Shown here piece after piece: positions 47,383 through 51,091 of a stretch of 64,000 nucleotides of DNA (the stretch's first letter is position 1; each line of letters starts with the position of its first letter). Both the position numbers and the translations under genes were made by a program. The DNA is from Eledone cirrhosa. Lineage: Eukaryota. Where the stretch lies: positions 409,448,001 to 409,512,000 of the forward strand of contig OZ024741.1 in NCBI GenBank assembly GCA_964016885.1, read 5' to 3'. Under the pieces are notes generated by a model, which was not told the origin of the DNA, did not search any database, and worked only from the letters and a program-made list of their open reading frames with translations.

Positions 47383-47600
47383 TCGTGCCACCCGAACCCA
47401 GGCAAACGTTACCATGGTACGTGTCGTACGGCCTATCTACCCAACAACCGCGACGGCAACGAGGTACTGAAGTTATTGCAGAAGGCTTTTGAATCGAGAC
47501 TGACCTTCACCGTTGGTCAGTCGCAGACGACTGGCCGCAAGAATGTTGTCATTTGGACCGACATTAACCACAAGACCAGCCCTTGTGGTGGTCCAGCTAA
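47383..47600 (+). CDS. Deltex-family E3 ubiquitin ligase (DTX3/DTX3L-like), penultimate coding exon, DTC domain
   Basis: Acceptor ttcgccAG, donor GTAAGT. Translation [72 protein letters not shown] matches Deltex C-terminal domain motifs (HPNPG, RTAYLP, FTVG-S-TTG, W-DIHHKT). Confidence 0.92.
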
Positions 47601-48724
47601 GTAAGTAACCCCTACTAATATTGTCATACGTTAAAATATATAGAATTCAGAGAAACATACATATAGAACATCTTATACAAAATCACTGAAGGGTAGATCC
47701 TAATAAAGTCATCTAAAACAAGAAAACTTAACAAGAATCTTGCCCTAGAGGTAGAATCCTAGTTAAAAACCTAAAACTATAAGGCTTCACTAAGTAAGAT
47801 GCTTGTGGACTTTTCTTCTTTTAGATTATTTTACTAGGATCTACTCGCCAATGAATTTTATAAGATGTTCTACACACACGCACACACACACACACACACA
47901 TATATATACATATATATATATATATATATATATATATATATATATATACATATATATATATATATATATATATATGTTAGACATGCAGTGACTAACAACA
48001 GAATGTTTTAAGTCTGCGTGTCTGGCATATATGCGTAGCTTGTGAATAAAAAATTCAAGGGGTGTCGCTGGCCGTGGTGATCCCTGCCAAACATCTTTTG
48101 TAATGTATCGTCTTATTGGCTAATTTCATCGTCTTATTGGCTAATTAACCAATGAGTGTAATTGTTGCTCAAAAACATCCGCCACTTTGCACGTTTATTT
48201 ATCGTTTCGCTTTCGAATCTTCCTCCTGTATTTCCTCGTTTATCATCAAAATATTTTTCTCGTTTTGGTAAGTTATATTGTTAATTTATATATGATTTTT
48301 TAAATTTATATTAACTATTTTTTTTTTCAGTTCGTTATAGCATGCTTATAATATAGGTTGTATCATATTTACTTGTATATTTGTCCATATTATTGTTCGT
48401 TTTATGTTAGATTATTTTATTATTATTATTATTATTATGTTAGATTATTTTTTTATTATTATGTTAGACTATTTGTATGTAATATTTAATTTTTATTAAT
48501 TCATCTATAACAATTATGTAAAATATATTTATTTAATATTGATTGTTTTTTTGTAGTTTATATTAAAAGTCTGAAAATATTTTTATACATCTTACAATAA
48601 TATTTATAAGATCATTTATAAAATAACAATTATATAATCTAATTACATTACAACGATAATTTATTATTAATATATATCATGTTTAACTAGAGTTATTACA
48701 AGCGTTGCCTTAAAAAAGTATTAA

Positions 48725-49174
48725 ACTAGACCTGAAAAATGCGCAGGCTCAAAAGAGCCACAGAATGTTATAATAAACCTTCAAAAGTGTGGGACTAGAG
48801 TTGTTGTTCAAAAATATTGTAATCATTATCTATCGTACACTCTGTGGCATCCTTTTATAAAAAAAAAGAGACTCATAACGAACTCAAGACGACACGATAA
48901 TTATTTAAGTGAATTTATAATATAGAATTCGGTTTAAGTGCATTTCGTATTAATCATTACTAAACATCTAATATGAGATATTGAACATTAGCTTAAATAA
49001 TTATCGTGTCGTCTTGAGTTCATTATGAGTCTCTTTTTTTATAAAAGGATGCCACAGAGTGTACGATAGATAATGATTACAATATTTTTTAGCAACAACT
49101 CTAGTCCCACACTATTGAAGGTTTATTATAACATTCTGTGGCGCTTTTGAGCTTGCGCATTTTTCATGTCTAGT
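48725..49174. mobile_element. Foldback/MITE-like element with ~185-bp inverted arms, inside the last Deltex intron
   Basis: 48725-48910 is the imperfect reverse complement of ~48991-49174; termini ACTAGAC...GTCTAGT. Confidence 0.75.
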
Positions 49175-49620
49175 ATATATATGTGTGTGTGTGTATTTTT
49201 CCTCGGTTACTCACTTGCATGTTCCATTGTCCTGTGTCCTCATTCGGTCTGTTTACTCGTTTTTTCTCTTTCTTCTTCTCTCCTCGCTGCTTTTTTTTTT
49301 TTTTTCTTTTTTTCTTTTTTTTTTGCTTTTTTTTTCTTTTCTTCCTGGCCTTTTGATCGATAAAAGCCCTTGGGTGCGCCGCTGATCGCTTATGATATCC
49401 TGTTTTAAGCGCCGGAACATCTATAATCTGCGGTTAACAGCTGATGAAGGATTTCTTCTCTTGTTTCGTCCTTATTACCATCTTAAACTTTGTTTACAGT
49501 AACCACACAGCTCGCTTCGTTTCTTGTAATTTTGTATATATATATATATATATATATATATATATATATATATATATATATATATATATATATATATATA
49601 TATATATATATATATATATA

Positions 49621-49731
49621 TAACGAAGGAAATGTGGTAAGGAACCAGGTGGACCATAACGCACCAAAGTACTCAACAGAATTAGCCGTCGAAACGGCTT
49701 GAGCTCAGCCGTCGGGGTCTTACTTGTTCCT
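49621..49731. mobile_element. Third short inverted insertion of the PLE family A terminus
   Basis: 49621-49676 equals ~44-99; 49677-49731 is the reverse complement of ~124-178. Flanked by (TA)n. Confidence 0.85.
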
Positions 49732-51021
49732 ATATATATATATATATATATATATATATATATATAAACATATATATATATATATATATAGAGAGAGAGA
49801 GAGAGAGAGAGAGCGAGAGAGATAGACATATTGTCTTTAATGTGTTAAAATGTCCGAGACCCCCAGCAGACAGCTGAAGAGAGACTGTCCCTTGTTTGTG
49901 CTTTCCTTTTATTTATATATATATATATATATATATATATATCTTGGAGAAAACCACGTGTCTATAGCGAAATTTACTGCTAGAACACACCCGCTGAGGC
50001 TATAGAACGCAAGATTTGTTGACGAAGTAAATCCTTTGTTCTGTCGTCAAAGGCCATTAACTTGCAGACCCCTGCAAGCGGAATTAGTCGATCTCGGATT
50101 TACAGAAACCTAGCGTGGATGTTGTATGTTATATGTGATGTATATCGTATGCTATACGATATGCATTATATATTGCATTCGGTCTCCGCATGATGGTCCA
50201 GGTCAGTTAAAAATCTTTTTGAGTCCAGTCTTTTTCGTTGCTATGGCAATGCGGCTGGACTGCCGATCGCTATATTTGATTTGCAAAGCTGTCTAAACGT
50301 ATTGTTATAACTCTGGGGTATTATTCTCCATCGAGTGCTAAAGCTACATTCCCAATTTACATTCGTTAGCTTAGCCGCAGCCTAAAGCTTCGTTAATGCT
50401 GTACTAACATTTGTATATATATATATACACACGTAATCCTGGTATGTGTATATGCATTTTTTTTTCTAACTTTAATTTTATACCTAATTGTGTATGGTTG
50501 ACGGTATATTTAATCGATTTCCACGTGCTATTGAAATGCTGGGTAAATATTCTGTAGCTGTTGATCGCGAATAGATGGCTGTCGTTTATTTATCTATTAT
50601 TTCTTCATAGGTGCCTTTTAATCTTATAGCCTGGTTTAATTGTTTTTTTTGTGTGGTTGATTATGCTAATTGGGAGAGGAAATTGAGTATATATCTTATC
50701 AAATGATTCTATGGACATAATTTATAGTATATATATATATATATATATATATATATATATATATATATATATATAGTGGAAAATGGACCTAAAACAATGA
50801 TATATATATATATATATTGTAATTATCTCCTCTCATTTATGTACACTTTACATTCTCTTTCTCTACCTATCTATCTACTTGTCTATCTACCTCTCTCTCT
50901 ACTTGTCTCTCTACTCCTCTCTCTCTCTATCTATCTACTTGTCTCTCTACTCCTCTCTCTATCTATCTATCTACATGTCTCTATATCAGTCTTACTCTGT
51001 CTTTCTCTGGTTCTATTTCAG

Positions 51022-51091
51022 CTGTGGCTTCCCTGATGCGTCCTACCTTTCTTTGGTAAGGCAACAGCTGGAGAAGAAAGGCATCAAGTGA
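51022..51091 (+). CDS. Deltex-family E3 ligase, last coding exon
   Basis: Acceptor ctatttcAG; the phase-2 join gives (N)CGFPDASYLSLVRQQLEKKGIK*, matching the GYPDxxYLxRVxxELxxKGI end of DTC domains. Confidence 0.9.

What the first reader, a model, noticed from the sequence alone, without database searches (positions are those of the whole stretch)
47383..51091. Deltex DTC domain with its ADP-ribose-binding/catalytic residues replaced (H>N, H/Y>C, E>Q) while the fold and splice sites are intact
Seen: two cleanly spliced exons with no stops or frameshifts encode ...[10 protein letters not shown]...GGPANCGFPDASYLSLVRQQLEKKGIK*. Established (recalled): Deltex RING-DTC ligases bind NAD+/ADP-ribose and ubiquitylate it, using the first His of W-x-x-I-H-H-K-T (DTX2 H582 / DTX3L H707), the His/Tyr before GYPD (DTX2 H594) and the Glu of the terminal helix (DTX2 E608 / DTX3L E733). 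By my hand alignment these positions read N, C and Q here, and N and Q are the usual inactivating substitutions. Inference: a lineage-specific Deltex paralog that has lost ADP-ribose ubiquitylation or changed ligand (pseudo-enzyme, decoy or new specificity), rather than a decaying pseudogene.
Basis: partly seen in the sequence, partly recalled or inferred. Interest (0 to 1): 0.75.

Follow-up and report, generated by a model that had tools for sequence, protein, structure and literature searches.

The report
Conserved octopus pseudo-Deltex ubiquitin ligase
This octopus gene encodes a DTX3L-type protein in which the three residues that human Deltex enzymes use to attach ubiquitin to ADP-ribose are replaced, yet the protein is almost unchanged across octopus species, so it has likely become a non-catalytic adaptor beside an intact sister enzyme.

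Summary
Confirmed. Two spliced exons (47383-47600, 51022-51091) end a Deltex DTC domain. Alignment to solved DTX1, DTX2 and DTX3L shows His>Asn, His/Tyr>Cys and Glu>Gln at DTX2 H582, H594 and E608. None of 155 other single RING-DTC proteins has any of the three. The gene is an octopod RRM-macrodomain-RING-DTC (DTX3L-like) protein. The same triad is in three Octopus species, Argonauta and one more distant unnamed record. DTC identity is 132-134 of 136, and 15 of 15 listed nucleotide changes are silent. Contigs from relatives show the splice joins. The phosphate and adenine contacts (Arg, Ser, Trp, Thr) are kept. Likely gastropod orthologues and two paralogues in this genome keep the catalytic residues. 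Best reading: a pseudo-ligase under purifying selection, likely an adaptor. No activity was assayed, and the 5' exons are missing from this assembly. The scan's unchecked notes describe a vertebrate pseudo-Deltex on other DNA; its kinship to this gene is unresolved.

The parts
1..47382 (+). 3' part of a 53.5-kb intron. The upstream exon (macrodomain tail, disordered region, RING, first third of DTC) lies outside the window at G000:C2:409440489-409441906
   Evidence: contigs from relatives join that exon to 47383
47383..47600 (+). DTC exon A (phase 0 acceptor, phase 2 donor)
47425..47427 (+). Arg kept (DTX2 R535, pyrophosphate contact)
47521..47523 (+). Ser kept (DTX2 S567 / DTX1 S566, pyrophosphate contact)
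47554..47556 (+). Trp kept (DTX2 W578, adenine stacking)
47566..47568 (+). Asn (AAC) in place of the catalytic His (DTX2 H582 / DTX3L H707)
47575..47577 (+). Thr kept (DTX1 T584, adenine N1 contact)
47601..51021 (+). GT-AG intron, 3.4 kb
   Evidence: skipped in contigs of two runs from a relative
51022..51091 (+). DTC exon B, coding part to the stop TGA
51023..51025 (+). Cys (TGT) in place of the adenine-stacking aromatic (DTX2 H594 / DTX3L Y719)
51065..51067 (+). Gln (CAG) in place of the catalytic Glu (DTX2 E608 / DTX3L E733)

Best explanation
This is the 3' end of a conserved octopod DTX3L-like gene (RRM, macrodomain, RING, DTC) whose DTC lacks the catalytic His and Glu and the adenine-stacking aromatic, so it likely no longer attaches ubiquitin to ADP-ribose and likely works as a non-catalytic adaptor. 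Shown: the substitutions, their conservation, the splicing in relatives, the DTC fold in a predicted model, and intact catalytic residues in two paralogues and in the nearest gastropod relatives. Inferred from human mutants: without the His-Glu pair the 3' hydroxyl is not activated; the linker Pro would hinder bringing E2~ubiquitin to the pocket; in octopods the RING Ile>Ser would weaken E2 binding, so lysine ligation is probably weak too. Proposed and untested: the kept Arg/Ser/Trp/Thr still hold a nucleotide or ADP-ribose weakly, while the RRM, KH-like and long disordered parts bind RNA or PARP14-type partners. It would then tune or shield marks that the intact paralogue at G000:C2:279.4 Mb ubiquitylates, much as catalytically inactive PARP9 works beside DTX3L and PARP14.
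For: N, C and Q are each in 0 of 155 other single RING-DTC proteins (H 150; F/Y/H 154; E/D 155). The N/C/Q triad occurs only in the 7 clade proteins among 230 DTC domains. DTX2 E608Q and H582 substitutions impair NAD+ ubiquitylation (PMC7615817 section 9). DTX3L H707A abolishes, and Y719A and E733A impair, ssDNA ubiquitylation (PMC11460948 passages). The RING residue equal to DTX2 I414 is Ser here and Ile/Val in 155 of 155 others; the I414A/Y425A double mutant loses E2~Ub binding (PMC7442474 passage). The linker reads Ala-Pro at DTX1 G476-E477, Pro in 0 of 155; the G476P/E477P mutant loses ADP-ribose-ubiquitin formation (PMC7500938 passage). Constraint: DTC 134/136 identical to three Octopus species and 132/136 to Argonauta; 15 of 15 listed base differences in exon A are silent. 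The clade has support 100/100, a long stem (0.51) and short inner branches. A model of the orthologue P0004 has pLDDT 93 and TM 0.93 to DTX2 and DTX3L. Both paralogues keep His and Glu.
Against: No activity or binding was measured. No human His>Asn or aromatic>Cys mutant appears in the passages I read, and the supplementary list of H582 substitutions was not seen. The I414 and linker mutants are double mutants, and this protein matches only one half of each. All eight RING zinc ligands are kept, and the more distant orthologue P0219 keeps Val at the I414 position. DTC mutants of human Deltex still ligate lysine. The adaptor role has no direct support. The 5' exons were not found in this assembly, so the full layout comes from orthologues.
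Confidence: 0.62

Rival explanations
1. It lost only the ADP-ribose chemistry and remains an ordinary lysine-directed RING E3 ligase.
For: All RING zinc ligands are kept, and RING plus linker is 66-69 of 71 identical among octopods. The His and Glu are needed for ADP-ribose but not lysine ubiquitylation (PMC11467253 passage). P0219 keeps hydrophobic residues at both E2-facing positions. A Gly linchpin is normal (38 of 155; human DTX3).
Against: In octopods the I414-equivalent is Ser and the residue before the last Cys is Asp, each in 0 of 155 others. The O. bimaculoides protein gave no RING match at E 0.01, and the Argonauta one scored weakly.
Confidence: 0.2
2. The pocket was rebuilt for a new ligand or new chemistry, for example a cysteine-based metal site or a cysteine that accepts ubiquitin.
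For: Four DTC cysteines are fixed in all 8 clade rows with a full DTC but are rare elsewhere (12, 7, 8 and 0 of 155). Two lie in the loop that lines the pocket, which in DTX2 faces the E2~Ub thioester. The phosphate contacts are kept. The tree shows a burst of change followed by stasis.
Against: No coordinates were available to measure the Cys geometry. The octopod RING looks poor at holding an E2. Each of the three changes needs only one base and removes function in human mutants of the same position.
Confidence: 0.1
3. It still ubiquitylates ADP-ribose, less efficiently or with a catalytic base supplied by a partner.
For: Arg, Ser, Trp, Thr and the second His are kept. E733A only impaired, and did not abolish, DTX3L activity.
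Against: Three pocket residues and the linker are changed together. H707A abolishes activity, and E608Q has a marked effect.
Confidence: 0.05
4. A decaying pseudogene or an assembly error.
For: The 5' exons are not found in this assembly (the positive control rang).
Against: The same residues are in four named species and an unnamed record. The three exons give 568 codons without a stop. Changes are silent, and spliced contigs exist in relatives. A 200-N gap lies 12.5 kb upstream of the first exon found, and the macrodomain tail is 69/69 identical to orthologues.
Confidence: 0.03

Closest known systems
Human DTX3L (PDB 3PG6) and DTX1/DTX2 RING-DTC (6Y5N, 6Y22, 6Y3J)
   Same: RING followed by DTC with a linker of the same length; same predicted fold (TM 0.93, rmsd 1.4-1.5 A); Arg, Ser, Trp and Thr contacts kept; N-terminal RRM.
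   Different: Catalytic His and Glu and the stacking aromatic replaced; RING Ile>Ser; linker Ala-Pro; carries its own macrodomain and long disordered regions; about 1,500 residues in orthologues.
Macrodomain-bearing invertebrate DTX3L orthologues (bioRxiv 10.64898/2026.04.23.720386, section 5; here Patella P0136, Babylonia P0101, Haliotis P0154, unnamed P0061)
   Same: RRM, macrodomain, RING, DTC layout (the RRM of P0154 was seen by phmmer only); they group with the octopod protein at 94/95.
   Different: All four keep His, an aromatic and Glu, the RING Ile and the linker Gly. Three of four keep the macrodomain Asp that is Ser in the octopod protein.
PARP9 in the PARP9/DTX3L/PARP14 module
   Same: An inactive enzyme domain kept in a multi-domain regulator of ADP-ribose signalling (PMC13224862 passages). 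This is an analogy for how it may work.
   Different: Different protein family: PARP9's dead domain is a transferase, here it is the ligase end. No partner is known for the octopod protein.
Vertebrate pseudo-Deltex beside IFI35
   Same: DTX3L-shaped protein with the DTC residues replaced, according to those notes.
   Different: The octopod gene groups with intact gastropod proteins, which favours a separate loss; not settled.

Membership tests
Deltex family (by structure and descent) | C-terminal DTC domain | tested here: met
   Pfam PF18102 185.8 bits on P0005; fold match to 3PG6 and 6Y3J
Deltex family (by structure and descent) | RING with eight zinc ligands directly before DTC, linker of conserved length | tested here: met
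   C3HC4 pattern in the upstream exon; gap-free linker alignment to DTX1/DTX2
Catalytically active Deltex ADP-ribose ubiquitin ligases | Catalytic His (DTX2 H582) and Glu (E608) | tested here: not met
   Asn and Gln
Catalytically active Deltex ADP-ribose ubiquitin ligases | Aromatic residue stacking on adenine (DTX2 H594) | tested here: not met
   Cys; 154 of 155 others have F, Y or H
Catalytically active Deltex ADP-ribose ubiquitin ligases | Phosphate and adenine contacts R535, S567, W578, T585 | tested here: met
   all four kept
Catalytically active Deltex ADP-ribose ubiquitin ligases | E2-binding hydrophobic residue of the RING (DTX2 I414) | tested here: not met
   Ser in octopods; Val in the distant orthologue P0219
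Catalytically active Deltex ADP-ribose ubiquitin ligases | Measured NAD+/ADP-ribose ubiquitylation | not testable with these tools
   needs an in vitro assay
Macrodomain-bearing invertebrate DTX3L orthologues | RRM + macrodomain + RING-DTC in one chain | tested here: inconclusive
   Met in orthologues. In this genome only the macrodomain tail onward is assembled.
Macrodomain-bearing invertebrate DTX3L orthologues | Macrodomain able to bind or hydrolyse ADP-ribose | tested here: inconclusive
   The Asp recalled as the adenine contact is Ser, but 7 of 51 other macrodomains in DTC proteins also have Ser. The Asn, Gly-Gly and Phe are kept.
Vertebrate pseudo-Deltex (scan notes) | One clade with the octopod gene | tested here: inconclusive
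   Only a lamprey E/Y/D protein was at hand, and it is not known to be that gene. An AU test on an under-searched tree did not reject the union (p 0.94); the careful tree leaves both unplaced.

The most novel reading that the evidence does not exclude
Cephalopods rebuilt the Deltex pocket into a cysteine-lined site with a new job: a reader that binds ADP-ribosylated or 3'-end RNA targets and shields them from ubiquitylation by its active paralogue, or a cysteine that relays ubiquitin or binds a metal. This would be the first natural Deltex with changed chemistry, arisen separately from the vertebrate pseudo-Deltex.
Probability: 0.15. Interest if true: 0.75.

Novelty: new variant of a known kind. 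Interest (0 to 1): 0.46.

Why it matters
The papers read describe the DTC His and Glu as strictly conserved (PMC7615817, PMC10810221, bioRxiv 10.64898/2026.04.23.720386). A natural protein with the E>Q change used to cripple DTX2, plus changes at the His, the aromatic, the linker and the RING, and still nearly frozen in sequence, implies that the RING-DTC unit has a job other than making ubiquitin-ADP-ribose. With an intact paralogue in the same genome and intact gastropod relatives, it offers a ready comparison for finding that job. Pseudo-enzymes as such are common (own knowledge), which caps the surprise.

Tried and rejected
Two of four laid runs (X1, X4) gave no record on exon A; the tool says a filter can cause this. 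5' exons: not found in 400 kb upstream, by three protein searches (one search ran with a stricter first look) or by two patterns (control rang). I read this as an assembly gap, not proven. RNA editing as a rescue: A-to-I editing of AAC, TGT and CAG cannot give His, Tyr/Phe or Glu (codons; editing rule from own knowledge), and the relatives' contigs list no change at the Asn codon. Gly linchpin as a sign of a dead RING: rejected, it is common. Macrodomain dead: not claimed. The quick tree was under-searched and was replaced, whose bootstrap had not settled (0.942). The ESM Atlas gave only generic macro-RING-DTC clusters. No complex prediction was sent. A likeness of the N-terminus to RBM43 is recalled only and was not tested. 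Six literature searches (listings only) showed no paper on a catalytically altered cephalopod Deltex. The preprint's figures and supplements, and Figs S9/S10 of PMC7615817, were not seen and may bear on this.

Full report
What is in the window. Two exons at 47383-47600 and 51022-51091 have canonical AG/GT ends and translate without a stop to the last two thirds of a DTC domain. A search of the own genome with PF18102 found six matches at three loci. One match, 6 kb before the window, is the exon that carries the macrodomain tail, a disordered stretch, the RING and the start of DTC (G000:C2:409440489-409441906), 53.5 kb upstream of exon A. The three exons give 568 codons without a stop.

What gene it is. 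Exon A is 100% identical to an Octopus bimaculoides protein of 1,530 residues and 97% to an Argonauta protein. The cluster also holds O. sinensis and O. vulgaris. So the genome is an octopod's, judged by protein likeness only. The orthologues have RRM, macrodomain, RING and DTC; a KH-like stretch after the RRM is my reading of the alignment, not a Pfam hit. Macrodomain-bearing DTX3L orthologues are noted in bioRxiv 10.64898/2026.04.23.720386 (passages and section 5 read). The 5' 960 residues were not found in this assembly: not in 400 kb upstream, which holds one 200-N gap 12.5 kb before the first exon, nor by five genome searches (control). The 69-residue macrodomain tail is identical to the orthologues, so a gap is likelier than a loss.

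The substitutions. Alignments to PDB chains fix the numbering: Asn at DTX2 H582/DTX3L H707, Cys at H594/Y719, Gln at E608/E733. In PMC7615817 (section 9 read) H582 and E608 form a triad with the 3' hydroxyl, and E608Q has a marked effect. In PMC11460948 (passages) H707A abolishes and Y719A and E733A impair ssDNA ubiquitylation. In PMC7500938 (passages) H581A and H593A lose ADP-ribose-ubiquitin formation but keep lysine discharge. PMC10810221 (passages) calls the His and Glu strictly conserved.

How unusual they are. From 246 fetched proteins I kept those with one DTC, a RING found by pattern and at least 150 residues, plus the partial orthologues P0004 and P0219 and the two spliced genome copies. 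That gave 164 rows, 9 of this clade and 155 others. The set is redundant and biased towards the query. Among the 155: His 150, Asn 0; Phe/Tyr/His 154, Cys 0; Glu/Asp 155, Gln 0. The dropped rows matter. Among all 230 domains of the earlier set, Asn occurs at the His site twice outside the clade, Cys once (a fish protein) and Gln at the Glu site twice, but the N/C/Q triad only in the 7 clade proteins. Loss of the His is not unique to octopods: five of the 155 have Ser, Pro or Glu there (fish, a gastropod, lamprey), and unnamed tandem-DTC proteins often have Pro. The other ligand contacts named in PMC7442474 and PMC7500938 (passages), namely Arg, Ser, Trp and Thr, are kept.

The residue two after the first RING Cys is DTX2 I414. 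It is Ser here and Ile or Val in 155 of 155 others. The residue before the last Cys is Asp (0 of 155). The linker reads Ala-Pro at DTX1 G476-E477 (Ala 4, Pro 0 of 155). The human tests at these places were double mutants, so the match is partial. The distant orthologue P0219 (RING and DTC start only) has the Ala-Pro linker but keeps Val and Ile in the RING. P0004 (DTC only) has N/C/Q. Both fall outside the Octopus-Argonauta group in the tree. If they come from one lineage, the DTC and linker changed first and the RING later; neither record is labelled, so this order is inferred. The macrodomain has Ser at the Asp recalled as the adenine contact, but so do 7 of 51 other macrodomains in DTC proteins; its state is open.

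Selection and splicing. DTC identity is 134/136 to three Octopus species, 132/136 to Argonauta and 117/128 to P0004, against 258/291 in the disordered region for the Octopus species. Contigs from two runs of a related organism differ from exon A at 19 and 20 places. Fifteen are listed, and together they change no residue, where 51 of 216 sites are silent. In the upstream exon, 20 of the first 21 listed differences (of 181 found, 40 shown) are silent. Those contigs stop at both ends of exon A, and their loose ends read as the upstream exon and as exon B. In one search the loose ends before the upstream exon read as macrodomain sequence in two runs and as the 15-residue isoform extension in a third. 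The runs are guessed to be RNA and are from relatives, so transcription in this species is not shown. A model of P0004 built on a 35-row alignment has mean pLDDT 93 and matches DTX3L and DTX2 with TM 0.93; a model built on family members tends to return the family fold.

Origin. In a 61-row RING-DTC tree the clade has support 100/100, a stem of 0.51 and inner branches of 0.11 or less; its sister is unresolved. In a 25-row macrodomain plus RING-DTC tree with the trait columns removed, it groups at 94/95 with Patella, Babylonia, Haliotis and an unnamed protein, which share its N-terminal RRM and keep His, aromatic, Glu, RING Ile and linker Gly. That support is just under the starred level. It points to loss from an intact mollusc ancestor. 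The genome keeps two intact paralogues: a macro-RING-DTC gene at C2:279.43-279.44 Mb (His/Phe/Glu; sister to a cuttlefish protein at 100/95) and a gene on C22 with His/His/Glu whose DTC resembles DTX1/DTX2 by eye.

Mechanism. The best reading is a pseudo-ligase kept for binding: no activation of the ADP-ribose hydroxyl, poor approach of E2~Ub, weak E2 binding in octopods, with a partly kept nucleotide pocket and RNA- or protein-binding N-terminal parts. Loss of ADP-ribose ubiquitylation is likely (about 0.9); the adaptor role is a proposal (0.62 overall). A lysine-only ligase (0.2) and a rebuilt cysteine-rich pocket (0.1; four fixed cysteines) remain open.

Novelty. Six searches (listings seen) showed no paper on this. 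The scan's notes hold nothing on this sequence or place but describe a vertebrate pseudo-Deltex and an intact octopus macro-RING-DTC gene. These are unreviewed. It is a Deltex by fold and descent, fails the tests for an active ADP-ribose ligase, and is a new variant of a known kind.

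Noticed in passing
P0031, P0034-P0077 and others: Many unnamed environmental proteins carry two or three DTC domains, often one with His and one with Pro at the catalytic His site, and Ser/Ala in place of the Glu: a possible active-plus-dead tandem Deltex family of unknown taxon.
   Followed up: partly
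P0014/P0012 (lamprey), P0177/P0155 (Xiphophorus, Oryzias), P0168 (Batillaria), P0030 and P0003 (fish repeats): Other replacements of the catalytic His (Glu, Ser, Pro, Asn, Gln), some with Glu>Asp.
   Followed up: no
G000:C2:279370843-279441800 (L047-L056): The intact macro-RING-DTC paralogue lies downstream of a yggS-like gene; a cuttlefish record (P0213) fuses the two in one model, probably a gene-prediction join of neighbours.
   Followed up: partly
L007:2485-2489: Orthologues have isoforms with or without 15 residues inside the macrodomain's second phosphate-binding loop; the insert could switch ADP-ribose binding.
   Followed up: no
window 23554-26217 (+), similar pieces at 4151-12004: LINE retrotransposon pieces in the long intron (endonuclease and RVT_1 matches for the first; the others by eye).
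   Followed up: partly
window 29457-30098 (-); 19381-21036 (+): GIY-YIG match, as in Penelope-like elements (the label is recalled). The ORFs at 19381-21036 look similar but gave no Pfam match at 1e-5.
   Followed up: partly
window 44008-46734: Tandem array of a 26-base unit, about 104 copies, 93% matches, 650 bases before exon A.
   Followed up: no
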